Notes: a model not told the origin generated them from the sequence alone. Shown: positions 43,420 to 56,565, numbered from the stretch's first letter. The stretch is 64,000 nucleotides of DNA from a bacterium (GCA_963674595.2 CAXXFV010000003.1:256001-320000); one strand, 5' to 3'. Made by a program: numbers and translations.

Positions 43420-43475
43420 TTGACAATTTAACATTGAATTAGTATATTTGTTCTAAGAATTTGAACCGGTTTAAA
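43420..43475 (+). promoter_or_regulatory. Promoter and LacI-family operator of the hexuronate operon
   Basis: TTGACA(43420)-17-TATATT(43443); near-palindrome TTTGAACCGGTTTAAA at 43460-43475. Confidence 0.8.
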
Positions 43476-43493
43476 AACTCACTGGAGGGCATA

Positions 43494-44483
43494 ATGCAGC
43501 CTATCAAATTATATCTTAAATTGTTTTCGATCTTATTGTTAGCCGTTTTTATTTTGTCAGGTTGCGGCACTAAAAGCAACGTTGTTTCATTAAAAATGGC
43601 TCATGGCCTGGATGTCAGTCATCCGGTTCACAAAGCTATGGTTTTTATGGCAGAGAAAGCCTGGGAAAAATCGGATTCAACATTAAAAGTTGATATCTAT
43701 CCAAGTGAACAATTGGGAAATGAAAAAGAGTGTATTGAACAACTGCAACTGGGAAGCCTGGCAATGACCAAAGTCTCCAGCAGCCCCCTGGAGAGTTTTA
43801 TTCCGAAATTAAAAGTATTGGCCCTCCCCTATTTGTTCCGAGATGCCGAACATAAATGGAACGTATTTAACGGACCGATTGGTAAAGAACTTTTATCTGC
43901 CGGTGAACCCGAAGGTTTAAAAGGATTATGTTTTTATGATGCAGGCGCCAGAAGTTTTTACACAACTTCTAAACCAATCCTGCACCCGGATGATCTGAAA
44001 GGTCTTAAAATAAGAACACAGCAAAGCCCGATGGCTATTAAAATGATCTCCACACTGGGCGGTTCAGCTACACCCATTTCATGGGGCGAACTTTATACCT
44101 CATTACAGCAGGGCGTTGTTGACGGTGCAGAAAACAATCAACCGAGTTTATACACCTCAAATCACTATGAAGTTTGTAAACATTATAGTCTGGATGAACA
44201 CACAATGGTTCCGGATATTGTTATGATCAGTACCATCGTGTGGAATCGTTTATCAGAGGCACATAAAAAAGCATTACAGGAAGCTATTGATGAATCCGTT
44301 CCCTATCAAATCAATCTTTGGAATGAGTTTGTTCGGGATGCAACAGATAAAATGGTGGCAAAAGGATTAAAAATATATAACCCGGATAAAGCCGCTTTTA
44401 TGGAACGAGCAAAAGAGATGTATAAAGAATTTGAAGGAACAGAAATCGGCGAACTGGCAAAACGTATTCAAAAAGTTGAGTAA
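43494..44483 (+). CDS. dctP: TRAP transporter substrate-binding lipoprotein (uronate-type)
   Basis: LSGC lipobox, YPSEQLGNEKE, FYDAGARSFY, KIRTQ, LQQGVVDGAENN; ATG 43494 with GGAGG RBS. Confidence 0.92.
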   Translation: MQPIKLYLKLFSILLLAVFILSGCGTKSNVVSLKMAHGLDVSHPVHKAMVFMAEKAWEKSDSTLKVDIYPSEQLGNEKECIEQLQLGSLAMTKVSSSPLESFIPKLKVLALPYLFRDAEHKWNVFNGPIGKELLSAGEPEGLKGLCFYDAGARSFYTTSKPILHPDDLKGLKIRTQQSPMAIKMISTLGGSATPISWGELYTSLQQGVVDGAENNQPSLYTSNHYEVCKHYSLDEHTMVPDIVMISTIVWNRLSEAHKKALQEAIDESVPYQINLWNEFVRDATDKMVAKGLKIYNPDKAAFMERAKEMYKEFEGTEIGELAKRIQKVE

Positions 44484-44486
44484 ATT

Positions 44487-45002
44487 ATGTGGATAAAAAT
44501 AAAATCTGCATTGGATAAATCACTGGAATGGTTAACGGCCATCCTCATGGCAGCATTAACCATTGATGTCACATGGCAGGTTATCACCAGATTTATTTTA
44601 AAAAACCCCAGTGACTGGACAGAAGAACTGGCCACGTTTCTTATGATTTGGGTTGGCTTATTGGGTGCAGCAGTTGCATTAAACAGAGGCGCCCACCTTG
44701 GCATAGATTATTTTGTGTCAAAATTCAAACCGGCTAACCGCCTGTTTACAGAGTTGTTTGTTCATCTGTCTGTAGGATTCTTTTCTGTTGGTGTTATGTT
44801 ATTAGGTGGTCTCAAGCTTGTTACTATAACCATGGCACGCGGACAGATTTCTCCGGCATTAAAAATCCCCATGGGATATGTTTATTTAGCAATACCCATT
44901 GCCGGATTTTTCTTAACATACTATAGTCTTGAATTTTTAATAGAAACAATAATAAAATTAAAGGCTAAAAATAAAAATGATGTTCCTTATGTAAAAATAT
45001 AA
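44487..45002 (+). CDS. dctQ: TRAP transporter small permease
   Basis: QVITRF...WTEELA...HLGID; 4 TM. Confidence 0.92.
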   Translation: MWIKIKSALDKSLEWLTAILMAALTIDVTWQVITRFILKNPSDWTEELATFLMIWVGLLGAAVALNRGAHLGIDYFVSKFKPANRLFTELFVHLSVGFFSVGVMLLGGLKLVTITMARGQISPALKIPMGYVYLAIPIAGFFLTYYSLEFLIETIIKLKAKNKNDVPYVKI

Positions 45003-45037
45003 TGTAATAACATTGACTCTTTAATAAAGGTTCTTCT

Positions 45038-46333
45038 ATGGATTGGCCTGTTATTGTTTTAATTACAAGTTTTCTTATATTTTTAGTATTAAATGTACCC
45101 ATAGCTGTTTCAATCGGTCTGTCATCGCTGTTGACCATTTTTACAATCGGAGGCATACCGGCATTTTTAACTATTGCACACAAAATTGCAACAGGAATAG
45201 ACAGTTTTGCATTGTTAGCTATACCATTTTTTATCCTGGCAGGACAACTAATGGGCCAGGGCGGAATTGCCAAACGTTTAATCGATTTTGCCAACGTGCT
45301 TGTCGGTAGATTTCCAGGCGGACTGTCCTTTGTCAACATTCTGACCTGCATGCTCTTTGGTGCAATATCCGGCTCTGCTGTTGCGGCCGTTTCGAGTGTT
45401 GGTGGTTTTATGATTCCGCTGATGAATAAAGAAGGTTATCACCGTGACTTTAATGCCTCTGTCACTATTACGGCGGCAACAACCGGTCTTCTTATTCCTC
45501 CGAGCAATGTAATGATTGTTTACTCCCTGGCTACAGGTGGTGCAGTTTCCATTGCCGCCATATTCCTGGCCGGATTTCTGCCGGGAATTTTAATGGGGCT
45601 TGGTTTAATGGTTGTCAGTGGATTCATATCCGTTAAAAATGGCTATGGTAAAGGTGTAACCTTTGGTTTTCAGGAAAGTATTAAAAGATTTCTAATCGCT
45701 ATCCCGGCACTGTTTTTAGTTGTACTGGTCCTTGGCGGTATTCTGGCCGGATATTTCACAGCCACGGAAGCCTCTGCTATTGCCGTTGTTTATGCGCTTA
45801 TTTTATCCGTCTTTGTTTATCGTGAAGTTAAAATAAAAGATTTACCCAAAATTTTCCTTCAGGCAGGAATCACTACCTCTGTTGTATTTCTATTAATTGG
45901 CACATCTATGGCCATGTCCTATGTTCTTGCTTATGAAAATATCCCCCAAAATATTAGCGCTGCGCTGCTGAGTATCACGCAAAACAAAATTATAATTTTA
46001 TTAATTATTAATTTATTATTATTGTTTGTCGGAACTTTTATGGATATGACGCCCGCAGTCCTTATTTTTACCCCTATTTTCCTCCCAATCGTTACAGGGC
46101 TGGGTGTGCATCCTATCCATTTTGGCATTCTGATGATTATGAATTTATGTATAGGCATTTGTACTCCACCTGTAGGTTCATGCCTTTTTGTAGGGTGTGG
46201 TATTGCCGAAACAACAATTACCAAAGTCATTCGCCATATTCTTCCATTTTTTATGGCAATGATAATCGTACTGTTTATAGTTACCTATATCCCTGCTATT
46301 TCTCTGATCGTACCAAAACTTTTTGGATTTTAA
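45038..46333 (+). CDS. dctM: TRAP transporter large permease
   Basis: LAIPFFILAG, FGAISGSAVA, LIPPS, FTATEA, GICTPPVG. Confidence 0.95.
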   Translation: MDWPVIVLITSFLIFLVLNVPIAVSIGLSSLLTIFTIGGIPAFLTIAHKIATGIDSFALLAIPFFILAGQLMGQGGIAKRLIDFANVLVGRFPGGLSFVNILTCMLFGAISGSAVAAVSSVGGFMIPLMNKEGYHRDFNASVTITAATTGLLIPPSNVMIVYSLATGGAVSIAAIFLAGFLPGILMGLGLMVVSGFISVKNGYGKGVTFGFQESIKRFLIAIPALFLVVLVLGGILAGYFTATEASAIAVVYALILSVFVYREVKIKDLPKIFLQAGITTSVVFLLIGTSMAMSYVLAYENIPQNISAALLSITQNKIIILLIINLLLLFVGTFMDMTPAVLIFTPIFLPIVTGLGVHPIHFGILMIMNLCIGICTPPVGSCLFVGCGIAETTITKVIRHILPFFMAMIIVLFIVTYIPAISLIVPKLFGF

Positions 46334-46336
46334 AAC

Positions 46337-46368
46337 AAAACGCCGGAATATAAAAACCGGCGTTTTTT
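46337..46368 (+). terminator. Hairpin/terminator after dctM
   Basis: AAAACGCCGG-10nt-CCGGCGTTTT(TT). Confidence 0.65.
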
Positions 46369-46379
46369 AACTACAAAAA

Positions 46380-46396
46380 TTAAAGCGGTTCAAATT
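46380..46396. promoter_or_regulatory. Second copy of the LacI-family operator, abutting the regulator ATG
   Basis: TTAAAGCGGTTCAAATT matches the reverse complement of 43458-43474 (TTAAACCGGTTCAAATT) at 16/17. Confidence 0.78.
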
Positions 46397-47434
46397 ATGG
46401 CAATTACAATTTCCGACATTGCACGGATTGCAGGTGTCTCTCGTGCAACTGTTTCCGGTGTTCTTAATAACAATCCATCTGTTAGTGAAAAAACCAGGCA
46501 ACGAATACTAACAATTATCAAAGAGCATGATTACAGACCAAATGAAATCGCTCGGGCATTAGCCTTAAATCAAACAGATATTATCGGACTTATTGTTAAA
46601 GATATTTCAAATCCCCTATATAGTAAAATTGCATTGGGTGTTGAAGAGACCTGTGCAAAAATGGGGTATTCAGTCATTATTGGTAACACTCAAAAAGATA
46701 TTCAACGCGAAATTTCACACATAAATCTGCTGAAAAGACGACGTGTAGACGGGCTCATTATTTTTCCATTGCAGCGAGGTGCAGATCTGGGTCATCTTTT
46801 TGAACTCAAAGAAGAAAATTATCCTTTTGTTCTTCTTGCTGAAGTTCCCGGTATAAAAGCAGACCTTGTCCGTTCGGATGATCAACCCGGCGCCTATCAG
46901 GCCACTAAACACCTGATAAATCTGGGTAGAAAACATATCGCTTACATAACAGGGCCGCAAAACGCCCTGGCAAATGACAGAAGACTTGGCTCCTATAAGC
47001 AGGCGCTCAATGATCACAATTTATCTTTAAATGAAGAACTGATACGTCCTGGCGGCTGGAGACGGAGTGACGGCTATAAAGCCGGTAAATTAATGCTAAA
47101 CGAGCTAAAAGAATATCCGGATGGTGCATTTTGTTACAACGATGCGGTTGCAATTGGTTTCATAAGAGCATTAGTTGAACATGGATTACGAATTCCCCAG
47201 GATGTGGCTATCGTCGGGTTTGATGATGCCGGTTCTGCCGCATATTTGGAGACAGCATTAACTACAGTAGAACAGCCCGCCAAAGAAATTGGAAACAAGG
47301 CCGCTCAATTGCTTGTAGAGCGGATTAAAAATAAAAAAGAACAACAGAGAACTAAAAAGATACTTTTACCCACATCATTAGTTATTCGTGAATCATGCGG
47401 TGCCAATGAAAAAGGTTCGGTTAAAGTATTCTAA
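46397..47434 (+). CDS. LacI family transcriptional regulator (hexuronate cluster)
   Basis: ITISDIARIAGVSRATVS, YRPNEIARAL, IVGFDD, LTTV, LVIRESC. Confidence 0.95.
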   Translation: MAITISDIARIAGVSRATVSGVLNNNPSVSEKTRQRILTIIKEHDYRPNEIARALALNQTDIIGLIVKDISNPLYSKIALGVEETCAKMGYSVIIGNTQKDIQREISHINLLKRRRVDGLIIFPLQRGADLGHLFELKEENYPFVLLAEVPGIKADLVRSDDQPGAYQATKHLINLGRKHIAYITGPQNALANDRRLGSYKQALNDHNLSLNEELIRPGGWRRSDGYKAGKLMLNELKEYPDGAFCYNDAVAIGFIRALVEHGLRIPQDVAIVGFDDAGSAAYLETALTTVEQPAKEIGNKAAQLLVERIKNKKEQQRTKKILLPTSLVIRESCGANEKGSVKVF

Positions 47435-47455
47435 GACAACAAAAAGGGTCTATCT

Positions 47456-48997
47456 ATGAAAAGCGATCAACAACTACAAGAATTGATGAATCAAATAAAA
47501 ACTCAATTTGACATCAAAATTGAAAAATATTATGAAACATCTTTGGTCGATAAAGATCAACAGAATTATGTGCTTTTAAAAACTGAAACCAGTAAAAAAT
47601 TGTTGGTATGGGGTCAGGAAGCGGATGCTCAGTTTAAGGGCGAGTCTGTTCAGTTAAAAATAGGTGATGTTGATTATGATGTAAAACTGTGCCCGCTTAC
47701 CCATGAAAATAGTTTAATAATGAGAAAAGTCTTTCCCTGGACAGGTCCAAAAACGGTTGGGTTACAAACGAGTTTCGGTGCCGGAGACAGAATTGGTGTT
47801 GCAACCCCCGGTCATATCAGAGCGCTGAAACAATACAACATCGTTCCGGTAATTGCCCAACAATCCATTCGCGAAATGAACCGAACGGTCCGTACATCAG
47901 AAGAGGTTATGGATGATGTTACCTGGGCTGTTTTTCAGGAAGGATATAAAGATGGATTCGGTTCTGACGCTGATCACCTTAAAACAGAACAGGATATTCA
48001 AAATACATTTGCAGCCGGATTTACAGGCTTTACCGTTGATCCATCCGACCATATAAATAATGAGGCAGACACATTAACTTCGGATGATCTTGAAAAAGCA
48101 TATCTTGGCGTATTTGATTCACCTGAATCAGCACAGGAGTTTTTAAAAAAATATGCTAATAACGAGGTCACGGTAAAAGGTAATGACAGATCATTAACTC
48201 TTTTTATCCCGGAAGAAGAAGTCAAAAGACTGGCCGTAAAATATATGACGGCAATCAAACATACCATCAACTGTTATAACCTTTTAAAGTCTCTTCATGG
48301 TGATAAGGAATTTGATTTTGAAATGTCGGTAGACGAAACAGAAACACCAACAACAGTAGCTGCCCATTATATCGTAGCAAACGAATTAGCCAAAGCTGAG
48401 GTACAGTGCACTTCGTTGGCGCCGAGGTTTATTGGTGAATTTCAAAAAGCAATCGATTATATCGGTGATGTCGATACGTTCCGCCAGCAGCTTATCGATC
48501 ATGTAACAATTTCTCAACATTTTGGCGGCTACAAAATCAGCATCCATTCCGGAAGTGATAAATACTCTATCTTTCCGATTGTTGGTGAAGAAACAAAAGG
48601 CGTATTTCATGAAAAAACAGCCGGCACAAGTTATCTTGAAGCATTACGAATTGTCAGCCGACATGATACAAAGTTGTTCCGTGAGATCGCCGTATTTGCA
48701 CGCGAAAAATTTGAAAAAGAACGTTTTTCCTATCATGTAACAACAGATATGAAAAAAGTTCCGACTGTAGATCAACTGACCGATGCTCAACTGGAATCCA
48801 TGCTGAACGAAGACGATGCAAGACAGGTACTGCATATCACTTTTGGTGGTACGTTGACGGAAAAGGATGCAAACGGTAATTATATTTTCAGAAATCGTAT
48901 TCTGGATGTTTTACACAAACAGGAAGAAGAACATTATAACGTTCTGGAAACTCTTTTTATAAAACATATTGAAGCATTTGGCGTTACAAAAAAATAA
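47456..48997 (+). CDS. uxaE: Tagaturonate/fructuronate epimerase
   Basis: SFGAGDRIG.ATPGH, AQQSIREM.RT, FGSDADHLK, FEMSVDET, APRFIGEFQKAIDY, KISIHSGSDK, KTAGTSYLEALR, RQVLHIT. Confidence 0.92.
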   Translation: MKSDQQLQELMNQIKTQFDIKIEKYYETSLVDKDQQNYVLLKTETSKKLLVWGQEADAQFKGESVQLKIGDVDYDVKLCPLTHENSLIMRKVFPWTGPKTVGLQTSFGAGDRIGVATPGHIRALKQYNIVPVIAQQSIREMNRTVRTSEEVMDDVTWAVFQEGYKDGFGSDADHLKTEQDIQNTFAAGFTGFTVDPSDHINNEADTLTSDDLEKAYLGVFDSPESAQEFLKKYANNEVTVKGNDRSLTLFIPEEEVKRLAVKYMTAIKHTINCYNLLKSLHGDKEFDFEMSVDETETPTTVAAHYIVANELAKAEVQCTSLAPRFIGEFQKAIDYIGDVDTFRQQLIDHVTISQHFGGYKISIHSGSDKYSIFPIVGEETKGVFHEKTAGTSYLEALRIVSRHDTKLFREIAVFAREKFEKERFSYHVTTDMKKVPTVDQLTDAQLESMLNEDDARQVLHITFGGTLTEKDANGNYIFRNRILDVLHKQEEEHYNVLETLFIKHIEAFGVTKK

Positions 48998-49009
48998 CCG
49001 GAGGAAATT

Positions 49010-49789
49010 TTGAGTTATATTGAAAACATTTTTAGTTTAAAAGGTAAAGTTGCAGCGGTTATCGGCGGCGGTGGTGTCTTGGCCGGCGCTATGGCAGAAG
49101 GTTTGGCAAAAGCCGGAGCTGACATAGCCATTCTGGACTTGAACCCGGAAAATGCAAAAAACACAGCGGATAAAATGAGTGCGCATGGTGTAAAATCACT
49201 GCCCATTGCTGTTAATGCAACATCCAAAGAAGAATTGACTAAAGCAGAAGAACAGATCAGAAAAGAGCTGGGTGCCACATCCATTCTTATTAATGCACCC
49301 GGAATCAACTCGTCCACACCGTTTTTCGAAATTGCAGAAGAAGAATGGGACAAAATTATACAGGTAAACCTGAAAAGCATTTTTATGGCCAGTCAAATTT
49401 TCGGTAAAAAAATGATTGAGAATAATTTAAAAGGAAGCATTATAAATATTTCATCAGCTTCCTCAGGACCGCCTCTGTCTAAAGTTTTTACCTATAGCAT
49501 TAGTAAAGCCGGTATAAATAACATGACACAGTTTTTAGCTAAAGAATGGGCAACGCAGGGTATACGCGTTAATGCAATTGCACCCGGATTTTTTCCGGCA
49601 GAACAAAACAGAAAAATCCTGACAAAAGAACGTGTAGCATCCATTATGGGGCATACCCCAATGGACCGTTTCGGTGAAGCTGAAGAGCTTGTCGGCGCAA
49701 CCATTTGGTTGGCCTCTGAAAAGGCCTCCTCATTTGTTACAGGTGCTATTGTCAGAGTCGATGGTGGATTTACAGCAATGACGATATAA
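49010..49789 (+). CDS. uxuB: SDR oxidoreductase, probable fructuronate reductase / D-mannonate oxidoreductase
   Basis: GGGGVLAG, PLSKVFTYSISK, RVNAIAPGFFPAEQNR, HTPMDRFG motifs of the SDR-type UxuB group; context. Confidence 0.72.
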   Translation: MSYIENIFSLKGKVAAVIGGGGVLAGAMAEGLAKAGADIAILDLNPENAKNTADKMSAHGVKSLPIAVNATSKEELTKAEEQIRKELGATSILINAPGINSSTPFFEIAEEEWDKIIQVNLKSIFMASQIFGKKMIENNLKGSIINISSASSGPPLSKVFTYSISKAGINNMTQFLAKEWATQGIRVNAIAPGFFPAEQNRKILTKERVASIMGHTPMDRFGEAEELVGATIWLASEKASSFVTGAIVRVDGGFTAMTI

Positions 49790-49863
49790 TTATTTTAGGA
49801 ATGTCAATAATAATTTATAAAAATAAACAACTAAACTTGAAACAAGAATTTGGAGTCATTTAA

Positions 49864-51318
49864 ATGAGTACTTTTGACATTGGACTTGTCGGGCTCGCCG
49901 TTATGGGTGAGAATTTGGTTTTAAATATGGAAAATCACGGTTTTTCAGTTGCCGTATTCAACAGAACAACAAGCAAGGTTGACAATTTTGTAAACGGCCG
50001 TGCAAAAGGCAAAAACATTAAAGGCTGTTATTCTATTGAAGAGTTGATTGCCAATTTAAAACGACCACGCAAAATCATGTTAATGGTTAAAGCCGGTGCA
50101 GCAGTAGACAGTTTTATAGAAATGCTGCTTCCGCATTTGGAAAAAGGCGACATTATCATTGACGGCGGTAACAGCCATTTTCCGGATACCATGCGACGAA
50201 CAAATTATCTTGAAGAAAAAGGTGTTCTTTTTATCGGTACCGGTGTTTCCGGCGGCGAAGAAGGCGCATTAACCGGTCCTTCAATTATGCCGGGCGGTTC
50301 AACTGAAGCATGGCCGCATGTAAAACCGATTTTTCAGGCAATTGCAGCCAAAGTTTCCGATGGTTCACCCTGCTGCGAATGGGTAGGACGTGATGGTGCA
50401 GGCCATTTTGTTAAAACAGTCCACAATGGCATCGAATACGGTGATATGCAGATGATTTGTGAAGCTTATAATTTGATGAAAAATGTTTTAGGCATGTCTA
50501 CTGAAGAAATGCACAACGTTTTTGGTGAATGGAATAAAGGCGAACTGGACAGTTATTTAATCGAAATTACCCGAGATATTCTGGCTAAAAAAGATGAAGA
50601 AACAAACGAACCGATTGTAGAATTAATTCTTGATACGGCTGGTCAAAAAGGCACCGGTAAATGGACCAGTCAGGCTGCATTGGACCTCGGCATCCCGGCA
50701 CAAACAGTTGCCGAAGCGGTGTTTGCCCGCGCTATGAGTGCTATTAAAGAAGAACGTGTTGCTGCATCCAAAGAGTTAAAAGGACCGGATGCAAAATTTA
50801 CCGGAGATAAAGAAGAATTTGTTGAAATGATCCGTAAAGCATTATACGCTTCAAAAATTTGTTCCTATGCTCAGGGTTACCAGCTCATGCGCGCAGCCGC
50901 AGCAGAATATAACTGGGACCTGAAATATGGTGAAATCGCACTGATGTGGCGCGGCGGATGTATTATTCGCGCTCACTTTTTGGAAAAAATTAAAGCAGCT
51001 TTTGATAAAAAACCGGACCTGGCAAATCTGCTGCTCGATCCGTACTTTAACAATATTATCGAACAAAATCAAAAGGCATGGCGGGCCGTTATTTCCAAAG
51101 CTGTTGAAATTGGTATTCCGGTTCCTGCATTTAACAGCGCCCTGGCTTATTATGACAGTTACCGAAACGAACGTTTACCGGCGAATCTGCTTCAAGCCCA
51201 AAGAGATTACTTTGGCGCACACACTTATGAAAGAATCGACAAACCTAGAGGTGAGTTCTTCCATACAAATTGGACAGGACGCGGTGGCACTACTTCAGCA
51301 ACAACCTATAACGCTTAG
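49864..51318 (+). CDS. gndA: 6-phosphogluconate dehydrogenase, decarboxylating (NADP)
   Basis: [51 protein letters not shown]. Confidence 0.97.
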
Positions 51319-51335
51319 TGTCTGTTCACTGAATG

Positions 51336-51363
51336 ATTCGGCCCGTTCGATTACGGGCCGAAT
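51336..51363 (+). terminator. Internal hairpin after gnd (terminator or stabiliser)
   Basis: ATTCGGCCCGT-6nt-ACGGGCCGAAT. Confidence 0.6.
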
Positions 51364-51389
51364 ATTATTTTATATATTATGTGAGAAAA

Positions 51390-52157
51390 ATGAATACCAA
51401 TTTTAATTTAGAAAATAAAACAGCTCTGATAACAGGAGCCAGCCGTGGTTTGGGTAAAGCTGTTTCACTGGCTTTTGCCGACGCAGGTGCAGACATTGTT
51501 CTGGTTTCGCGAGGTGAAAAAGCTTTGCTCAAAGTGAAAGCAGAAATTGAATTAAAAAACAAAAAAGCCTGGATATTTACGCACGATTTTTCAGATACGC
51601 AGGCCATCCCTGAACTTTATGACAGAATTTTAGAACAAACAAAATCCATTGACATTATTGTCAATGCAGCCGGAATGATCTTCAGGACCGATGCAGCCGA
51701 TTTTCCGTTGGAAGAATGGAATAAAATTCTGGCCGTTAACCTGACGGCCCCTTTTGTCCTGAGCCAGTGTTTTGCAAAATCCTGTATGAAACAACAAAAA
51801 CCAGGAAAAATCATCAACTTTGCTTCTCTGCTCAGCAGAGCGGCGCGACCGTCTCTTCCGGCATATACGGCGAGCAAGGGCGGTATTGTTCAGTTAACAG
51901 CAGCGCTGGCTGTTGAATGGGCGGAGCATCGTATTAATGTCAATGCCATCGGCCCCGGATATTTTGAAACAGAAATGACACGGCCGTTGTCTGAAGATAA
52001 AGAATTTTCAGAATGGGTCAAACAACGTACGCCCATGAATCGTTGGGGACAGCCGTCCGAGCTGACAGGTACGGCCGTCTTTTTAGCATCCGAAGCATCA
52101 AATTTTATTACCGGACAGACGATTTATGTAGACGGCGGCTGGCTGGCCAATTTATAA
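51390..52157 (+). CDS. SDR, KduD / gluconate 5-dehydrogenase family
   Basis: TGASRGLG, YTASKGG, NVNAIGPGYFETE, RTPMNRWG, VDGGWL; likely ATG 51390. Confidence 0.8.
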   Translation: MNTNFNLENKTALITGASRGLGKAVSLAFADAGADIVLVSRGEKALLKVKAEIELKNKKAWIFTHDFSDTQAIPELYDRILEQTKSIDIIVNAAGMIFRTDAADFPLEEWNKILAVNLTAPFVLSQCFAKSCMKQQKPGKIINFASLLSRAARPSLPAYTASKGGIVQLTAALAVEWAEHRINVNAIGPGYFETEMTRPLSEDKEFSEWVKQRTPMNRWGQPSELTGTAVFLASEASNFITGQTIYVDGGWLANL

Positions 52158-52181
52158 ACATATATTTCAGGAAAAAATATA

Positions 52182-53450
52182 ATGATCGGACAAGGATTCA
52201 CAGATAAAAATTTAAATGAACAGCAGGTTCAGGAACTTTGCCGACAGGCTTTTGAAGAGAATAAAAACCTGCTTGAAGGGAAAAAAGTATTGGCCATTAT
52301 TCCGGACCATTCCCGAACCGCGCCAATTGATATAATGTTTCGCACTTTTTATAACCTGTTGGCAGATAAAGTTAAAAATCTTGATTTTATCATTGCCTTA
52401 GGGACCCATCCGCCTATGACGGAAGAAATGATTTATCAGCGTGTGGGTATAACCGCAGAACAGCATCAAAACGTGTACTCAAAAGCACGTTTTTTCAATC
52501 ATCACTGGGACGACCCCGCGCAACTGGCGAATATCGGGACAATTTCAGCAAAACAAGTTGCCGAAATATCCAACGGACTTTTGAATGAAAAAGTTGATGT
52601 AACAATCAATAAAATGGTGCTGGATTATGATGTTCTCTTCATCATTGGCCCGACGTTCCCGCACGAAGTTGTGGGATTTTCAGGCGGAAATAAATATTTA
52701 TTTCCGGGTATCGGCGGAAAAGAAATTATCGACATGTTTCACTGGCTGGGCGCTTTAATAACCAATCCGGCAATTATAGGGACAAAATACACACCCGTCC
52801 GTAAAGTTGTGGACATCGCCGCTGCATTTTTACCGGTTCCTCGCTTATGTGCAAGTCTGGTTGTGAAGGGAACCGACCTTGCCGGTTTATATATCGGTAC
52901 CCCGGAAGAGGCCTGGGCTTCCGCATCAAATTTATCAGATAAATTACATATTGTATATAAGGACCATCCTTTTAAAAGTGTTTTATCATGTGCACCTGCC
53001 ATGTACGATGAAATATGGACAGGCGGTAAATGCATGTACAAGCTGGAACCCGTTGTAGCAGATGGCGGGGAACTGATTATTTATGCTCCTCATATCAGCG
53101 AGGTTTCCATCACACATGGAAAAATTATCGAACAAATCGGTTACCATGTTCGAGATTATTTTACAAAACAGCCTGAAAAATTTGCCGATATTCCGGGCGG
53201 TGTTAAAGCACATTCAACACATGTCAGGGGTGTCGGTACATTTGAAAATGGCATAGAAAAACCCAGGGTGCAGGTGACGCTGGCCACAAAAATACCGGAA
53301 GAAACTTGTAAAAAGATTAATCTGGGTTATCGTGATCCGGATTCGATTGACGTTTCCGAGTGGCAGGACCGGGAAGATGAAGGTTATTTATATGTTAAAA
53401 AAGCAGGTGAAATGCTGTATCGGTTAAAAAATGATCCGTTTAAATTATAA
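52182..53450 (+). CDS. LarA-family nickel-pincer hydroxyacid racemase/epimerase (GntE-like candidate)
   Basis: PDHSR, ALGTH, PHEVVGFSGGNK, FHW: positions equivalent to LarA D72/R75, H108, H174, K184, H200. Confidence 0.85.
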   Translation: MIGQGFTDKNLNEQQVQELCRQAFEENKNLLEGKKVLAIIPDHSRTAPIDIMFRTFYNLLADKVKNLDFIIALGTHPPMTEEMIYQRVGITAEQHQNVYSKARFFNHHWDDPAQLANIGTISAKQVAEISNGLLNEKVDVTINKMVLDYDVLFIIGPTFPHEVVGFSGGNKYLFPGIGGKEIIDMFHWLGALITNPAIIGTKYTPVRKVVDIAAAFLPVPRLCASLVVKGTDLAGLYIGTPEEAWASASNLSDKLHIVYKDHPFKSVLSCAPAMYDEIWTGGKCMYKLEPVVADGGELIIYAPHISEVSITHGKIIEQIGYHVRDYFTKQPEKFADIPGGVKAHSTHVRGVGTFENGIEKPRVQVTLATKIPEETCKKINLGYRDPDSIDVSEWQDREDEGYLYVKKAGEMLYRLKNDPFKL

Positions 53451-53483
53451 TTATATATAGATACGATTATTTCGGAGGATAAA

Positions 53484-54776
53484 ATGGCGTTAAATAAAAA
53501 TGTTGTGGTTGCACAATCCGGTGGTCCATCGCCGGTCATTAATAATACCCTTCGCGGTATTATTGAAACGTGCAAAATGTTTCCAGATAAATTTGACAAA
53601 ATCTATGGCGGATGGCATGGTATTGAAGGCGTTCTGAAAGAAGAACTACTGGATATTACCGCACAAACAGAAGAAGAAATCAGTTTATTAAGAACAACAC
53701 CCGCCGCCGGTTCCATCGGTACATGTCGTTACAAACTGAAAGCAAACCAACAGGAAGATTTTGAACGGGTTGTAGAGGTTTTAAAGGCCCATAATATCGG
53801 CTACTTTTTCTACATCGGTGGTAATGATTCCATGGACACGGCAAACAAAATTGCACAAATAGCCCATGAAAAAGGATTGGACCTGATTGCTGTCGGTGGT
53901 TCCAAAACAATCGATAACGACGTAGGTGATTCCGAATTTAAGCTTGTCGATCACACACCCGGTTATGGTTCTGTCGCCAAATACTGGGCCATGAATGTGC
54001 AAAATGCCAATGAAGAAAACATGGGATCCTGCCCGGCTGATCCTGTGCTTGTTATGCAGGTGATGGGACGAAAAATAGGATTTATTCCCGCCGCAGCTCG
54101 TTTGGCAGATGTAAAACGTGAATTACCATTGCAAATTTATATGCCGGAATCAAACCTTACCCTGGATGAACTGACCGACAATGTAAATGACGAATTAGCC
54201 AAAAGCGGCCGTTGTATTGTTGTTGTTAGTGAAGGATTTGACGTTGGTGATCTTGGTGAAATGAAAGACGGATTCGGTCATACCGAATTCAGCGCCAGCA
54301 TGTTTACCGCGCAGCAGATTATCGTTAACCACCTTAATAAAGTGGGTATCAAAGCAAAAGGCGCTGCCAGAGGTCAGGTTGTTGGAACAGACCAGCGTGA
54401 TACAATGATTTACGCTTCAACGGTTGATTTGGATGAAGCCTACAAAGTCGGACAAAATGCCGTTGTTATCGCTGTTGAACACGGATCCGGTTACATGTCA
54501 ACAATCTTGCGCCGACCTGGATTGATTTACAATGTTGATTTTGACAAGGTCCCGCTTGATGAAGTTGCCAATTCTGAACGGGAATTCCCGAAAAACTGGA
54601 TTACGGAAAATAAAATTGACGTAACAGATGATTTTGTAAAATATGCCCGTCCCTTAATCGGAGAAGAATGGGTCAGCGTACCTGTGATAAACGGTATTCA
54701 ACGTTTTGCACGATTTGCACCCATATTTGCAGACAAAAAACTGCCGGCCTATGTGCCGCAAACAGAACGAAAATAA
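53484..54776 (+). CDS. PFK-A family phosphotransferase with PPi-type signature
   Basis: QSGGPSPVIN, GTCRYKL, GGNDS, KTIDND, TPGYGS, MGR, VSEG. Confidence 0.88.
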   Translation: MALNKNVVVAQSGGPSPVINNTLRGIIETCKMFPDKFDKIYGGWHGIEGVLKEELLDITAQTEEEISLLRTTPAAGSIGTCRYKLKANQQEDFERVVEVLKAHNIGYFFYIGGNDSMDTANKIAQIAHEKGLDLIAVGGSKTIDNDVGDSEFKLVDHTPGYGSVAKYWAMNVQNANEENMGSCPADPVLVMQVMGRKIGFIPAAARLADVKRELPLQIYMPESNLTLDELTDNVNDELAKSGRCIVVVSEGFDVGDLGEMKDGFGHTEFSASMFTAQQIIVNHLNKVGIKAKGAARGQVVGTDQRDTMIYASTVDLDEAYKVGQNAVVIAVEHGSGYMSTILRRPGLIYNVDFDKVPLDEVANSEREFPKNWITENKIDVTDDFVKYARPLIGEEWVSVPVINGIQRFARFAPIFADKKLPAYVPQTERK

Positions 54777-54817
54777 AATAACATTTAATATAAGAATTTA
54801 TAAAAAAGGAAAAATAT

Positions 54818-55702
54818 ATGTCAGATCCCCAAGCACCCTTGAAAGATTTGCAGCCAAAACATGAATATTTGGTAGCGATCGACTCGGATGGTTGTGCCTT
54901 TGATACAATGGAAATCAAACACAAAGAATGTTTTATCCCCAATATTATTAAATATTGGGATCTTCAAAGCGTATCCAAATACGCCAGAATGGCGGCCGAA
55001 TTTGTTAACCTGTATTCAAAATGGCGCGGTATTAACCGTTTTCCGGCGTTGACCATGGTTTTTGATCTGCTGCAGGAATGGCCGGATGTTCAAAAACGAC
55101 ATGTTAAAATACCACAGGCACAAGCCGTGCGTGACTGGATAGAACGGGAAACAAAACTGGGAAACCCGGCATTAAAGGCACTTGTTGAAAAAACCAGTGA
55201 TCCGGTACTAACACAAGCCCTTGACTGGAGTGAAGCTGTAAATGCAACCGTAACCGATATGGTGCACGGAGTCCCTCCTTTTCCGTTCGTTAAAGAAAGC
55301 CTGGAAAAAATTTCAGAATGGGCGGACATTATCGTTTGTTCGGCAACCCCAAATGAAGCTTTACAGCGTGAATGGGAAGAACACGACATTGCCAAATACA
55401 CGCGTGTTATTGCAGGCCAGGAAATGGGTAGTAAAAAAGAACATTTAGCTTTTATGACCCAAAATAAATATAAAAGTGATCATGTTCTTATGATTGGCGA
55501 TGCACCGGGAGACCGGAAAGCAGCGGAAGCCAACAATACCCTCTTTTTTCCAATCAAACCCGGTCACGAAGATGAAAGCTGGGAATTCTTTTTAAACAAT
55601 GCCTCGGACAAGTTTAAAAACGGAGCATATACGGCCGAGTATCAGGCAGGGTTAATCAAGGAATTTGAAGCCCTGTTGCCGACGACACCTCCCTGGAAAT
55701 AA
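54818..55702 (+). CDS. HAD family hydrolase (probable sugar-acid phosphatase)
   Basis: IDSDGC motif I, CSAT, K, MIGDAPGD. Confidence 0.85.
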   Translation: MSDPQAPLKDLQPKHEYLVAIDSDGCAFDTMEIKHKECFIPNIIKYWDLQSVSKYARMAAEFVNLYSKWRGINRFPALTMVFDLLQEWPDVQKRHVKIPQAQAVRDWIERETKLGNPALKALVEKTSDPVLTQALDWSEAVNATVTDMVHGVPPFPFVKESLEKISEWADIIVCSATPNEALQREWEEHDIAKYTRVIAGQEMGSKKEHLAFMTQNKYKSDHVLMIGDAPGDRKAAEANNTLFFPIKPGHEDESWEFFLNNASDKFKNGAYTAEYQAGLIKEFEALLPTTPPWK

Positions 55703-55711
55703 TGTTTTATT

Positions 55712-55745
55712 AAAAGCCTTTTCATAATTAATGAAAAGGCTTTTT
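55712..55745 (+). terminator. Terminator of the hexuronate operon
   Basis: AAAAGCCTTTTTCAT / ATGAAAAGGCTTTT inverted repeat with U-tract. Confidence 0.8.
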
Positions 55746-55827: not shown

Positions 55828-56553
55828 ATGCAAGATACAATTCTTCCGATTACAGTAAAATCCTACGACTGTTCCCAGGACAAATACCTGACGTTCTATA
55901 ATCTTTTGCAGTACATGCAGGAAGCAGCCTATATCAATGCAAATATATTGGGACTTGGTTTTAAAGAACTCTTACAACAAAATAAATATTGGGTTTTGTC
56001 AAATATAAAACTCGAAATAAAAAAAATGCCGAAATGGGACGACGACATCAAGCTTCAAACCTGGTCCTGTGGCGCCAATAAACTTGTGGCTTTTAGGGAT
56101 TTTTTCATTAAAGACAACAATGACGATATTTTGATCAAAGCTGCCAGTGAATGGCTGACAATAGATGCAACAACACGCAGGCCTCGCCGTTTACAGGAAT
56201 TAAATCTTCCTATTATAACAAGCGACAAACGAGCCATTGATGAAAAACTGCAACGTATAAATCCTTCAACGCTGGAGAATTTGCAAAAAATTTATGAAAT
56301 ATCCGTTCCTTACAGTTCAATCGATGAAAACGGACATGTGAATAATGCGGAATATATTAAATGGGCATTTGACGCATTATATAACAAGCAGATAAAAACC
56401 GAAAACATCGAATCGATTCAAATATCCTATTTAAACGAATTATTAATCAATCAGACAATGGATATCTATTACACTCAGCAGGAAACCTCTGTTGTTCTGG
56501 TCGGGAAAAATGCTGATGACCAAGCCAATATTTTTGCTTTAAAAGTAAATTAA
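55828..56553 (+). CDS. Acyl-ACP thioesterase (double hot-dog fold)
   Basis: YMQEAA, WVLS, RDF, SEW..ID..TRRP, IDENGHVNNAEY. Confidence 0.88.
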   Translation: MQDTILPITVKSYDCSQDKYLTFYNLLQYMQEAAYINANILGLGFKELLQQNKYWVLSNIKLEIKKMPKWDDDIKLQTWSCGANKLVAFRDFFIKDNNDDILIKAASEWLTIDATTRRPRRLQELNLPIITSDKRAIDEKLQRINPSTLENLQKIYEISVPYSSIDENGHVNNAEYIKWAFDALYNKQIKTENIESIQISYLNELLINQTMDIYYTQQETSVVLVGKNADDQANIFALKVN

Positions 56554-56565
56554 AATAAACAGGGT

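What the first reader, a model, noticed from the sequence alone, without database searches (positions are those of the whole stretch)
53484..55702. PPi-signature PFK homologue plus HAD may be the missing sugar-acid kinase/phosphatase pair
Seen: GGNDS and KTIDND, i.e. Asp and Lys at the positions of E. coli PFK G104/G124, which is the established PPi-type signature. The motifs also deviate: SKT instead of PKT, and GTDQR instead of GH/YxQR near the sugar-phosphate site. The gene directly follows the LarA epimerase in an operon that needs a gluconate or mannonate kinase but encodes none. Inference: a PPi-dependent aldonate/uronate kinase, with the HAD as a proofreading phosphatase. The alternative is a PPi-PFK/sedoheptulose-7-P kinase recycling pentose phosphates.
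Basis: partly seen in the sequence, partly recalled or inferred. Interest (0 to 1): 0.75.

Follow-up and report, generated by a model that had tools for sequence, protein, structure and literature searches.

The report
PFK-like kinase in uronate operon
A specialised relative of phosphofructokinase and a phosphatase-like partner close a sugar-acid operon that has no ordinary sugar-acid kinase, so it probably supplies that missing step, which nobody has tested.

Summary
Window 53484-54776 encodes a 430-aa PFK-A family protein ("PFKh") with GGNDS, SKTIDND and GTDQR. Window 54818-55702 encodes a 294-aa HAD with an intact DxD motif. They are the last two genes of an 11-gene operon: TRAP transporter, LacI, UxaE, SDR, Gnd, SDR, LarA homologue, PFKh, HAD.

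PFKh belongs to a tight clade (68-89% identity across many phyla) that is separate from characterised PPi-PFKs (34-43%). In 55 loci from other genomes it sits with HAD (54), LarA homologue (45) and Gnd (49), amid hexuronate genes. No locus has a canonical gluconate kinase. None was found in the own genome or in 41 relatives, and four other PFKs cover glycolysis.

Best reading (0.55): PFKh is the pathway's sugar-acid kinase, probably PPi-dependent, and feeds 6-phosphogluconate to Gnd.

- The Asp/Lys "PPi signature" and GGNDS are traits of the whole family.
- SKT is not conserved across the clade.
- PFKh and HAD are separable modules, not an obligate pair.
- The HAD tracks LarA/Gnd even where PFKh is missing.

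The acceptor, the phosphoryl donor and the HAD's role are all unproven. Five earlier notes of this scan flagged the same gene pair on other DNA.

The parts
43420..43448 (+). promoter-like site (TTGACA, 17 nt, TATATT) ahead of the first gene of the operon
   Evidence: 11 of 12 matches, the best in the region. This is a consensus match only.
43461..46333 (+). TRAP transporter DctP (43461-44483), DctQ (44487-45002), DctM (45038-46333)
   Evidence: PF03480 283 bits, PF04290 114 bits, PF06808 398 bits. TIGR00787 and TIGR00786 score above their cut-offs.
46397..47434 (+). LacI-family regulator
   Evidence: LacI HTH domain plus Peripla_BP_3.
47456..48997 (+). UxaE, tagaturonate/fructuronate epimerase
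   Evidence: PF16257 579 bits over 473 of 475 profile positions.
49010..49789 (+). SDR1, mannonate-oxidoreductase-like short-chain dehydrogenase (probable fructuronate reductase)
   Evidence: NF006132 scores 273.4 bits, just under the cut-off of 281. Found in 39 of 55 related loci.
49864..51318 (+). Gnd, decarboxylating 6-phosphogluconate dehydrogenase
   Evidence: TIGR00873 scores 787 bits against a cut-off of 427.
51333..52157 (+). SDR2, KduD / gluconate 5-dehydrogenase-like dehydrogenase
   Evidence: TIGR01832 264 bits and NF006070 254 bits, both below cut-off. Found in 15 of 55 loci.
52182..53450 (+). LarA homologue, putative hexonate 2-epimerase
   Evidence: Lar_N 83 bits; the best family is NF052594 'NPN_18_hexonate' at 186 bits against a cut-off of 500. 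Found in 45 of 55 loci.
53484..54776 (+). PFKh: PFK-A family protein of a distinct clade and candidate sugar-acid kinase. GGNDS at 53817-53831, SKTIDND at 53901-53921, GTDQR at 54384-54398.
54818..55702 (+). HAD-IA type phosphatase-like protein with a large C1 cap. Motif I is D22-S-D24. S175, T177, K206, D228 and D232 are invariant.
   Evidence: Found in 54 of 55 PFKh loci (with ORF-start overlaps corrected by eye).
55712..55744 (+). terminator-like hairpin (14-pair stem followed by a T run) 10 bases after the HAD stop codon

Best explanation
The 11 genes from 43461 to 55702 form one hexuronate operon that sends uronic acids to ribulose-5-phosphate through 6-phosphogluconate. A TRAP transporter imports the substrate and UxaC is encoded elsewhere in the genome. 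UxaE makes fructuronate and SDR1 reduces it to mannonate. The LarA homologue inverts C2 to give the gluconate configuration, and Gnd decarboxylates 6-phosphogluconate. PFKh supplies the one phosphorylation this route needs. It is a PFK-A family enzyme re-tuned to put a phosphate on the terminal CH2OH of a six-carbon sugar acid. In this picture the acid's carboxylate sits where fructose-6-phosphate's phosphate normally binds. PPi is the likely donor. Gluconate is the acceptor best supported here, and mannonate (followed by epimerisation of 6-phosphomannonate) or fructuronate are alternatives. The HAD is an active phosphatase of the same pathway. Most plausibly it removes wrongly made or inhibitory phospho-aldonates that would block Gnd. 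Shown here: gene identities, operon structure, the separate PFKh clade, its conserved neighbourhood, and that no canonical GntK was found. Inferred: the acceptor, the donor, the order of kinase and epimerase, and the HAD's substrate.
For: (1) Clade. The listed homologues and the 55 loci are 68-89% identical and come from KSB1, Calditrichota, Ignavibacteria, Bacteroidales, Planctomycetes, Elusimicrobia, Hydrogenedentota and others. Identity then falls to 34-43% for PRK14072-type PFKs. In the tree the clade has SH-aLRT 94.
(2) Context in 55 loci. HAD occurs in 54, directly downstream in 52. Gnd occurs in 49 (40 whole, 9 cut by contig ends), the LarA homologue in 45, SDR1 in 39 and UxaE in 24. 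UxaC (13), KduI (11), Eda (7), UxuA (5) and GH28 (3) also occur. No GntK appears in any locus.
(3) No canonical gluconate kinase. TIGR01313 has no hit in the own genome, and TIGR01314 scores at most 145 bits against a cut-off of 648. Neither family scores above cut-off in any of 41 relatives. Of 30 PFKh-bearing genomes in a 167-genome phylum sample, none is among the 11 with P-loop GntK. Four of 5 distant PFKh genomes lack both families.
(4) Glycolytic PFK is covered elsewhere. The genome has four other PFK genes, including a PFK_mixed type (464 bits against 430) and a PPi-PFK equivalog (582 against 550).
(5) Kinase slot. A divergent KdgK-like PfkB kinase sits directly upstream of the HAD in L149 (Gnd-SDR2-LarA-PfkB-HAD-UxaE), L142 and G023.
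(6) Gluconate as acceptor. The complete chromosome G041 has Gnd-PFKh-HAD next to a TRAP transporter, and its only LarA homologue is a malate racemase (542 bits against 500). In G042, UxaE-SDR1-LarA lies 1.6 Mb from Gnd-PFKh-HAD. L029 has PFKh-HAD-Gnd-SDR-G6PD.
(7) Active site. The catalytic and anion-binding residues are kept: R82, D144, D146, M194-G195-R196, E250, R296, Q304-R305. Clade-specific changes cluster around them: Q192, K197, D253, T302-D303 and an inserted DSEFK at 149-153.
(8) HAD. All HAD catalytic motifs are invariant in 39 sequences. A HAD-Gnd fusion protein exists (P0395, 14 members). As precedent, phosphatases that remove 4-phosphoerythronate protect 6PGDH (PMC6449344, abstract seen in the listing).
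(9) Pathway precedent. LarA-type mannonate/gluconate 2-epimerases are known (PMC7583248, passages). [quoted passage not shown]
Against: No assay exists and everything here is inference from context. To my knowledge (recalled, not searched exhaustively), no PFK-A family enzyme has been shown to phosphorylate a non-phosphorylated acceptor. All the basic residues that hold the 6-phosphate in PFKs are conserved, which fits a sugar phosphate as well as a carboxylate. D303 also adds negative charge near that site. The pathway can run with no kinase in the operon: G025 has LacI-SDR1-Gnd-LarA-HAD, and G030 and G033 have Gnd-LarA-HAD. By my reading, at least 27 metagenome loci hold 1.5 kb or more upstream of the HAD and show no PFKh there. 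So the missing kinase could lie elsewhere in this genome too. PFKh occurs without the HAD in G034. No transaldolase was found in the own genome. L040 has transketolase inside the cluster. Both points fit a pentose-phosphate role. LarC was not found in the own genome and occurs in only 4 of 41 relatives. LarE is below cut-off. The nickel-pincer epimerase step of the model is therefore itself uncertain. The P-loop GntK overlap test has no power (about 2 overlaps expected by chance), and related genomes are not independent.
Confidence: 0.55

Rival explanations
1. PFKh is an ordinary sugar-phosphate kinase, a PPi-dependent F6P/S7P/Ru5P 1-kinase. It works downstream of Gnd to move pentose phosphates back to glycolysis by the sedoheptulose-bisphosphate route used by cellulolytic clostridia. 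The hexonate kinase is then an unrecognised gene elsewhere.
For: PFKh is a member of PRK14072, named diphosphate-fructose-6-phosphate 1-phosphotransferase. Its closest structures are titled PPi-PFK. All phosphate-anchoring basic residues are kept. No transaldolase was found in the own genome. Transketolase lies inside cluster L040 and G6PD inside L029. Operons with Gnd-LarA-HAD but no kinase show that the hexonate kinase can be encoded elsewhere. The PPi-PFK/S7P route is published (PMC7029132, abstract seen in the listing).
Against: Transaldolase is present in 38 of 41 relatives, among them 20 of the 23 that carry a PFKh orthologue, and in 5 of 5 distant PFKh genomes. PFKh therefore does not track loss of transaldolase. 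The genome already has four other PFKs, including a PPi-type equivalog. PFKh is a separate clade with clade-specific changes at the sugar site (T302, D303, K197). Its tightest partners are sugar-acid genes, not transketolase or aldolase. A KdgK-like sugar-acid kinase replaces it in three loci. This reading leaves the route without any candidate kinase in genomes where no canonical GntK scored above cut-off.
Confidence: 0.2
2. PFKh and the HAD act in line as a kinase-phosphatase couple. One adds a phosphate and the other removes a different one, as HldE and GmhB do in heptose synthesis. Alternatively the HAD is a phosphomutase or phosphotransferase, so that 6-phosphogluconate is reached through a bisphosphate or a differently phosphorylated intermediate.
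For: The two genes are adjacent in 52 of 55 loci. The HAD has the DxD motif of phosphatases and phosphomutases. Its fold resembles beta-phosphoglucomutase, the HAD pyrophosphatase BT2127 and the bisphosphatase CbbY about as well as it resembles phosphoglycolate phosphatase. The HAD is fused to Gnd in P0395. The HAD is kept in Gnd-LarA operons that lack PFKh, which suggests a role more central than repair.
Against: PFKh occurs without the HAD (G034) and the HAD occurs without PFKh (G009, G025, G030, G033 and many metagenome loci). No first kinase exists in the operon to make a monophosphate for a PFK-type second phosphorylation, and the transporters are TRAP or MFS types, not PTS. Paralogues of this HAD are fused to a Cof-type sugar phosphatase beside an ABC importer and far from any PFK or Gnd, which looks like plain phosphatase work.
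Confidence: 0.12
3. The acceptor is the keto-uronate itself. D-fructuronate is fructose-6-phosphate with a carboxylate in place of CH2OPO3, so PFKh would make 1-phosphofructuronate. SDR1 would then reduce this and the LarA homologue would epimerise it to 6-phosphogluconate. This is a sub-variant of the best explanation with a different order of steps.
For: By chemical reasoning (no call), fructuronate is the closest possible mimic of the family's normal substrate. L054 has LacI-UxaC-UxaE-PFKh-HAD with no SDR, LarA or Gnd nearby. PdxB-like dehydrogenases (the family that oxidises 4-phosphoerythronate) sit beside the LarA homologue in 7 loci, which hints at phosphorylated aldonates upstream of Gnd. 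The reported Km values for free mannonate of LarAH19 and LarAH20 are 120 and 17 mM (PMC7583248, Table 2 passage).
Against: G041 and L029 have Gnd-PFKh-HAD with no UxaE, and G041 has no hexonate-type LarA homologue. There only gluconate gives 6-phosphogluconate directly. In G042, LarA travels with UxaE and SDR1 rather than with PFKh.
Confidence: 0.13

Closest known systems
Thermotoga maritima hexuronate branch UxaE-UxuB-GntE-GntK-Gnd (Rodionova 2012, as cited in PMC7583248 and PMC6978723; GntE2 = LarAH20 assayed in PMC7583248)
   Same: UxaE, a fructuronate reductase, a LarA-family C2 epimerase and Gnd share one operon that routes uronates to the pentose phosphate pathway.
   Different: No GntK is present. 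A PFK-A family protein and a HAD stand in its place. The LarA homologue scores only 186 bits against a cut-off of 500 for the nearest curated group. LarC was not found in the genome.
Lactobacillus suebicus route: mannonate kinase plus 6-phosphomannonate 2-epimerase (Valk 2020, PMC6978723)
   Same: It starts and ends at the same points, and phosphorylation of a hexonate at C6 is the key step. The genes for both new activities are still unidentified in that paper.
   Different: There the kinase activity was ATP-dependent in extracts, and FGGY-type GntK proteins were abundant. Here no canonical GntK was found and the candidate belongs to an unrelated fold.
PRK14072-type PPi-dependent phosphofructokinases (PDB 3hno, 3k2q)
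   Same: The fold is the same (TM 0.88/0.95). The catalytic TIDND, MGR, EG and QR motifs are shared, as are Asp and Lys at the positions linked to PPi use.
   Different: Identity is only 34-43%. PFKh is a separate clade with inserts at 149-153 and 284-294 and changed residues at Q192, K197, D253, T302, D303 and I309. It sits in a dedicated sugar-acid context and is a fifth PFK paralogue in the genome.
PPi-PFK as sedoheptulose-7-phosphate kinase in cellulolytic clostridia (PMC7029132)
   Same: A PFK-family enzyme serves the pentose phosphate pathway rather than glycolysis.
   Different: That role goes with absence of transaldolase. Most PFKh carriers have transaldolase.
Metabolite-proofreading phosphatases guarding 6PGDH (Pho13/PGP, CpgA; PMC6449344)
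   Same: A phosphatase removes a phospho-aldonate that inhibits Gnd. Here the HAD is linked to Gnd by position and, in P0395, by fusion.
   Different: This HAD has no sequence match in the PDB and only a generic HAD-IA fold match. Its substrate is unknown.

Membership tests
PFK-A family (Pfam PF00365) / NCBIfam PRK14072 subfamily | Profile score above the curated cut-offs | tested here: met
   PF00365 scores 123.4 bits against 30.9, although only profile positions 1-228 of 277 are matched. NF010675 scores 375.5 against 273.
PFK-A family (Pfam PF00365) / NCBIfam PRK14072 subfamily | PFK fold | tested here: met
   The AF2 model has pLDDT 95.2. Foldseek gives 3hno TM 0.88/0.95 and 3k2q TM 0.85/0.93.
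PFK-A family (Pfam PF00365) / NCBIfam PRK14072 subfamily | Catalytic motifs: TIDND with the catalytic Asp, MGR, EG | tested here: met
   T142, D144, N145, D146, G195 and E250 are invariant. M194, R196 and G251 are nearly invariant in 70 sequences. The functional roles of these residues are recalled from E. coli PfkA.
PPi-dependent 6-phosphofructokinase (EC 2.7.1.90) | Asp and Lys at the positions of E. coli G104 and G124 | tested here: met
   D115 and K141 are present in 57 of 57 clade members. The rule itself is recalled, and one search did not find it in the library.
PPi-dependent 6-phosphofructokinase (EC 2.7.1.90) | Fructose-6-phosphate site as in characterised enzymes (His/Tyr before xQR) | tested here: not met
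   The sequence is G-T302-D303-Q-R. 3k2q and 3hno have Y-L-Q-R at this place, and the outgroup is mostly hydrophobic there.
PPi-dependent 6-phosphofructokinase (EC 2.7.1.90) | Orthology with an assayed PPi-PFK | tested here: not met
   PFKh forms a separate clade with SH-aLRT 94. Identity to the nearest structures is 34-35%. Those structures come from structural genomics, and no assay was seen here.
PPi-dependent 6-phosphofructokinase (EC 2.7.1.90) | Activity on F6P with PPi | not testable with these tools
   This needs an enzyme assay.
Gluconate kinase families (P-loop GntK TIGR01313; FGGY GntK TIGR01314) | Sequence membership | tested here: not met
   PFKh matches only PFK models. Any gluconate or mannonate kinase role would be by analogy, not homology.
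HAD superfamily phosphatase, subfamily IA (C1 cap) | Motifs I-IV: DxD nucleophile and acid, Ser/Thr, Lys, acidic pair | tested here: met
   D22, D24, S175, T177, K206, D228 and D232 are invariant in 39 sequences.
HAD superfamily phosphatase, subfamily IA (C1 cap) | Rossmann-like core with an inserted helical cap | tested here: met
   The model has pLDDT 94.5 with helices from about residue 30 to 148 between motifs I and II. Foldseek hits are all HAD-IA enzymes with probability 1.00, but TM is only 0.35-0.51 normalised to the query.
HAD superfamily phosphatase, subfamily IA (C1 cap) | Substrate | not testable with these tools
   There is no PDB sequence match and no curated family above cut-off.
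Thermotoga-type GntE route | UxaE, reductase, LarA-type epimerase and Gnd in one operon | tested here: met
   The reductase scores 273 against 281 and the LarA homologue 186 against 500, so both are below their equivalog cut-offs.
Thermotoga-type GntE route | GntK in the operon or genome | tested here: not met
   in a genome that is 97.6% complete.
Thermotoga-type GntE route | Nickel-pincer cofactor synthesis (LarC, LarE) available | tested here: not met
   PF01969 has no match. TIGR00268 scores at best 46 bits against 150. LarC is found in 4 of 41 relatives. LarB was not tested.

The most novel reading that the evidence does not exclude
PFKh is the first PFK-A family enzyme whose acceptor is not a sugar phosphate. 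It would be a PPi-dependent hexonate (gluconate/mannonate) 6-kinase that reads a carboxylate where its relatives read a phosphate. With its HAD guard, it would give many anaerobic lineages (KSB1, Calditrichota, Ignavibacteria, Bacteroidales, Planctomycetes, Elusimicrobia) an ATP-free entry of pectin-derived uronic acids into the pentose phosphate pathway. It could also supply a candidate gene for the 'mannonate kinase' activity that Valk 2020 left unassigned.
Probability: 0.35. Interest if true: 0.8.

Novelty: new variant of a known kind. Interest (0 to 1): 0.6.

Why it matters
Routing uronic acids through 6-phosphogluconate instead of the classical KDG branch is redox-neutral. It has been proposed as a way to ferment pectin-rich waste (PMC6978723). 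The kinase step of that route has no assigned gene outside GntK carriers. A PFK-family sugar-acid kinase, possibly driven by PPi, would extend what this well-studied enzyme family is known to do. It would correct a widespread annotation, since the named hits are all called 6-phosphofructokinase or PPi-PFK. It would also change metabolic reconstructions of many uncultured sediment and gut anaerobes. The conserved HAD, and the apparent lack of nickel-pincer cofactor genes beside LarA homologues, are further open questions that can be tested directly.

Tried and rejected
- Binding of PFKh and HAD (complex prediction) gave no verdict, with scores of 0.00 in both runs. It counts neither for nor against binding.
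- RNA evidence: no RNA run holding the stretch was listed.
- PFK-HAD fusion proteins: P0427 and P0432 carry both domains. However, their alignments break into low-identity, Arg-rich stretches typical of frameshifted gene calls, so they were rejected as evidence.
- The other fused PFKs carry glycosyltransferase or adenylate kinase domains, not HAD.
- FGGY kinases as a displaced GntK:
  - Hits of 260 bits or more to TIGR01314 occur only in 12 genomes without a PFKh orthologue and in none of the 23 with one.
  - They are mostly from one family of genomes.
  - In the 7 of those 12 genomes whose FGGY region I fetched, they lie in no similar operon.
  - The one tested matches PDB gluconate kinase 3gbt (187 bits) barely better than xylulokinase (177 bits).
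  - This is kept as a lead only.
- Cof-HAD fusions (about 25 clusters) were followed into metagenome contigs. They sit by an ABC transporter and a LacI-SBP regulator with no PFKh or Gnd nearby. They say only that the wider HAD family handles organophosphates.
- The HAD fold search gave only generic HAD-IA matches.
- The paper search for the G104/G124 rule found nothing relevant.
- Literature searches for this enzyme pair:
  - 'tagaturonate epimerase' plus 'phosphofructokinase' gave 1 unrelated paper.
  - 'pyrophosphate-dependent' plus 'gluconate kinase' gave 4 unrelated papers.
  - 'mannonate kinase' and its variants gave only Valk 2020.
- Supplementary tables of PMC7583248 (LarA group contexts) were not opened and may bear on which LarA group this homologue belongs to.
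Full report
WHAT IS THERE. Window 53484-54776 (+) gives a 430-aa protein, here called PFKh. Window 54818-55702 (+) gives a 294-aa protein. Both are preceded by Shine-Dalgarno-like purine runs.

PFKh matches Pfam PFK (123 bits) and passes the NCBIfam PRK14072 subfamily cut-off (375.5 against 273). Its nearest solved structures are two structural-genomics entries titled pyrophosphate-dependent PFK, 3k2q and 3hno (E 2.5e-72 and 9.3e-69). An AlphaFold model (pLDDT 95.2) superposes on them with TM 0.85-0.95. The motifs GGNDS (112-116), SKTIDND (140-146) and GTDQR (301-305) are present as described.

The second protein is a HAD-superfamily member (HAD_2, 34 bits). It has no sequence match in the PDB. 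Its confident model (pLDDT 94.5) resembles HAD-IA enzymes only in a general way. Hits include phosphoglycolate phosphatase, the MtlD phosphatase domain, the BT2127 pyrophosphatase, CbbY and beta-phosphoglucomutase, at TM about 0.35-0.5 normalised to the query.

THE OPERON. Eleven genes lie head to tail on the + strand with gaps of 75 bases or less. In order they are DctP, DctQ, DctM, LacI, UxaE (579 bits), an SDR closest to mannonate oxidoreductase, Gnd (TIGR00873, 787 bits), a second SDR of the KduD/gluconate-5-dehydrogenase kind, a LarA homologue, PFKh and the HAD. For the LarA homologue the best family is 'putative hexonate epimerase', at 186 bits against a cut-off of 500.

The best promoter-like site of the region lies just upstream of DctP (43420-43448). 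A 14-pair hairpin with a T run follows the HAD stop codon (55712-55744). UxaC is encoded on another contig.

This is the gene set of the Thermotoga route that takes uronates through mannonate and gluconate to 6-phosphogluconate (passages of PMC7583248 and PMC6978723). The difference is that the gluconate kinase is missing.

PFKh IS A CLADE OF ITS OWN.
- The best 120 homologues listed are 78-89% identical. Their sources name them only as 6-phosphofructokinase or PPi-PFK.
- Among 41 related genomes, 23 (own included) carry an orthologue at 67-100% identity. The next best matches are 38-41% identical.
- In a library clustered at 50% identity, full-length representatives lie at 63, 60, 53 and 52%. 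Everything else is at 43% or less.
- A quick maximum-likelihood tree of 117 rows places the clade (27 rows plus one truncated member) on one branch with SH-aLRT 94. It is nested inside the PRK14072-like radiation. The four other PFK genes of this genome serve as outgroup.
- Those four include a PFK_mixed type and a PPi-PFK equivalog that pass their cut-offs. Ordinary PFK duty is therefore already covered.

WHAT THE MOTIFS SAY. I compared 57 clade members with 86 other PRK14072-like representatives.
- GGNDS, K141, TIDND, MGR, EG, R82, R296 and Q304-R305 are common to both groups. The Asp/Lys 'PPi signature' is thus a family trait and argues only that the clade kept its ancestors' donor.
- 'SKT' is not conserved in the clade. 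Residue 140 is Pro in 30, Ser in 21 and Ala in 5 of 57.
- The following are clade-specific: an inserted D-S-E-F-K (149-153) right after TIDND, Q192 (Glu outside), K197 (Asp/Asn/His outside), F252-D253 (Ile/Leu then Lys/Arg outside), T302-D303 (variable then Leu outside), an insert around 284-294, and I309 (His outside).
- These changes sit next to the residues that bind the sugar phosphate in E. coli PfkA (roles recalled). The basic residues that hold its distal anion are kept. This fits an acceptor with an anionic far end, whether phosphate or carboxylate. It cannot tell the two apart.

NEIGHBOURHOOD ACROSS PHYLA. A scan of species-representative genomes gave 55 loci. They come from KSB1, Calditrichota, Ignavibacteria, Bacteroidales, Planctomycetes, Elusimicrobia, Hydrogenedentota, Vulcanimicrobiota and one Clostridiales MAG. 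I compared all ORFs with the window's operon proteins and clustered the rest for Pfam.
- The HAD is present in 54 of 55 loci. It lies directly downstream of PFKh in 52. Five of these were first miscounted because ORF starts overlapped, and I corrected them by eye. It lies elsewhere in the locus in L023 and L048. L058 ends 2 bases after PFKh.
- Gnd is present in 49 loci (40 whole, 9 cut by contig ends), the LarA homologue in 45, SDR1 in 39 and UxaE in 24.
- Other recurring neighbours are UxaC (13), KduI (11), an MFS transporter (11), KDPG aldolase (7), a PdxB-like 2-hydroxyacid dehydrogenase (7), UxuA (5) and GH28 (3).
- No locus holds a GntK of either family.

NO CANONICAL GLUCONATE KINASE FOUND.
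- In the own genome (97.6% complete), TIGR01313 has no hit and TIGR01314 scores at most 145 bits against 648.
- None of 41 relatives passes either cut-off.
- In a 167-genome sample of the phylum, 30 genomes carry PFKh and 11 carry P-loop GntK, with no overlap. About two overlaps would be expected by chance, and related genomes are not independent, so this is weak.
- Of five distant PFKh carriers, one (G043) has a P-loop GntK.

WHICH ACCEPTOR.
- Gluconate is favoured by several loci. The complete chromosome G041 has Gnd-PFKh-HAD beside a TRAP transporter. Its only LarA homologue is a malate racemase next to succinyl-CoA ligase. There only gluconate gives 6-phosphogluconate directly.
- In G042, UxaE-SDR1-LarA forms one operon 1.6 Mb from Gnd-PFKh-HAD. 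That split is what one expects if epimerisation precedes phosphorylation.
- A Pirellulales locus has PFKh-HAD-Gnd-SDR-G6PD.
- Mannonate or a keto-uronate is favoured by other loci. L054 has UxaC-UxaE-PFKh-HAD alone. PdxB-like genes sit beside the LarA homologue. The reported Km values for free mannonate of LarAH19 and LarAH20 are 120 and 17 mM.
- L. suebicus extracts phosphorylate mannonate first.
- I rank gluconate first, but the enzyme may take both.

THE HAD IS NOT SIMPLY PFKh's PARTNER.
- Its catalytic residues are invariant, so it is an active phosphotransferase.
- Among the 41 relatives it is found in 29. These include genomes with no PFKh orthologue: G025 (LacI-SDR1-Gnd-LarA-HAD), G030 and G033 (Gnd-LarA-HAD), G027 (LarA-HAD) and G009 (beside GH3 and an alginate lyase).
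- Conversely, G034 has the whole operon ending in PFKh, followed by an aldo-keto reductase, with no HAD hit in the genome.
- A metagenome scan seeded with a fused relative returned 80 loci. Thirteen are Cof-HAD fusions. Of the other 67, 19 have PFKh in the held stretch. By my reading, at least 27 hold 1.5 kb or more upstream of the HAD with no PFKh there, often with UxaE, SDR1, LarA or Gnd instead.
- A protein of 803 aa (P0395, 14 member sequences) joins a full-length HAD to a full-length Gnd.
- The HAD therefore tracks LarA and Gnd more faithfully than it tracks PFKh.
- A reasonable reading is a guard for Gnd. Proofreading phosphatases that remove 4-phosphoerythronate are known to protect 6PGDH (PMC6449344, abstract seen in the listing). 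A loosely specific hexonate kinase would make such analogues, for example 6-phosphomannonate. This is inference only.

A SECOND KINASE FAMILY IN THE SAME SLOT. In L149 (Gnd-SDR2-LarA-PfkB-HAD-UxaE), L142 and G023, a PfkB-family kinase stands directly upstream of the HAD. Its best curated matches are KDG-kinase types, far below their cut-offs (245-257 bits against 700; 121-129 against 440; fructokinase only 36-42). A sugar-acid kinase relative in PFKh's position is the most direct comparative support for the kinase role. It rests on two or three lineages only.

THE RIVAL.
- It gains from the fact that no transaldolase was found in this genome. It also gains from transketolase in L040, and from operons that carry no kinase at all.
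- It loses because transaldolase is present in 38 of 41 relatives, among them 20 of the 23 that carry a PFKh orthologue, and in 5 of 5 distant carriers. It also loses because other PFKs are present, and because PFKh's fixed companions are sugar-acid genes.
- I put it at 0.2.

OPEN PUZZLE. LarC (the nickel-insertion enzyme) was not found in this genome, although it has three LarA-family genes. LarC occurs in only 4 of 41 relatives, and the closed genome G008, which has the operon, lacks it. LarE scores 46 bits against a cut-off of 150. Either cofactor synthesis is done by unrecognised genes or these LarA homologues work differently. The epimerase step of every model above depends on this.

STANDING. 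The scan's earlier notes had already flagged the same PFK-like plus HAD pair on other DNA five times, always untested.
- the clade analysis and residue statistics;
- the finding that the two genes are separable;
- the HAD-Gnd fusion;
- the PfkB replacement;
- the loci without a hexonate-type LarA homologue and the LarC gap.
Full-text searches found no paper on a PFK-family or PPi-dependent hexonate kinase. The pathway is known in outline. The kinase family, and possibly the donor, would be new.

Noticed in passing
whole genome; LarA-family genes at window 52182-53450, G000:C1:49534-50142 and G000:C4:53388-53972: The genome has three LarA-family genes. No LarC (PF01969) was found, and no LarE scores above cut-off (best 46 bits against 150). 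LarC occurs in only 4 of 41 relatives, and the closed genome G008, which carries the same operon, has none. The nickel-pincer cofactor pathway seems to be missing where its client enzymes are present. LarB was not tested.
   Followed up: partly
window 27284-32452 (-): A complete rRNA operon (5S, 23S, two tRNAs, 16S) explains the 51% GC block in an otherwise 32-43% GC window.
   Followed up: yes
own genome G000: No transaldolase (PF00923) was found in the 97.6% complete assembly, although 38 of 41 relatives have one. This is either an assembly gap or a real loss that would need the sedoheptulose-bisphosphate bypass.
   Followed up: partly
P0395 (803 aa): A natural fusion joins this HAD (residues 1-294, 52% identity) to a full Gnd (TIGR00873, 749 bits) through a linker of about 40 residues. 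It has 14 member sequences.
   Followed up: partly
L084-L095, L161 (metagenome loci): About 25 protein clusters of about 575 aa fuse a Cof-type HAD-IIB sugar phosphatase to a 44-50% identical copy of this HAD. In the five such loci (of 12 full-length ones) whose neighbours I annotated by Pfam, four have the gene next to a classical ABC importer (binding protein, TOBE-type ATPase, double-length permease) and one (L095) next to a tripartite tricarboxylate transporter; three also carry a LacI-SBP fusion regulator. None has a PFK or Gnd nearby.
   Followed up: partly
L040 12775-14685; L124 6084-8085; L138 1590-3486; L114: A GHMP-family kinase (with a galactokinase-like signature in L124) and a nucleotidyl transferase recur inside these uronate clusters. 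This hints at a uronate-1-phosphate / NDP-uronate side branch.
   Followed up: no
L048, L053, L056, L057, L059, L064, L066: A PdxB-like 2-hydroxyacid dehydrogenase with the DUF3410 domain sits beside the LarA homologue and Gnd in 7 loci. PdxB is the family that oxidises 4-phosphoerythronate (recalled). The gene may act on a phospho-hexonate at C2 or remove a Gnd inhibitor.
   Followed up: no
relatives G005, G019, G023, G025, G027, G029, G031, G033, G035, G037, G038, G040: A class of FGGY kinases scores 260-299 bits on the gntK_FGGY model, below the cut-off of 648. It occurs only in genomes with no PFKh orthologue. The best PDB match of one of them is gluconate kinase 3gbt, barely ahead of xylulokinase. 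It could be the alternative kinase, but phylogeny confounds the pattern.
   Followed up: partly
window 55828-58185: Downstream of the terminator lie an acyl-ACP thioesterase and a PMT_2-like membrane glycosyltransferase (24.8 bits, below the cut-off of 26.1). Both are unrelated to the operon.
   Followed up: no
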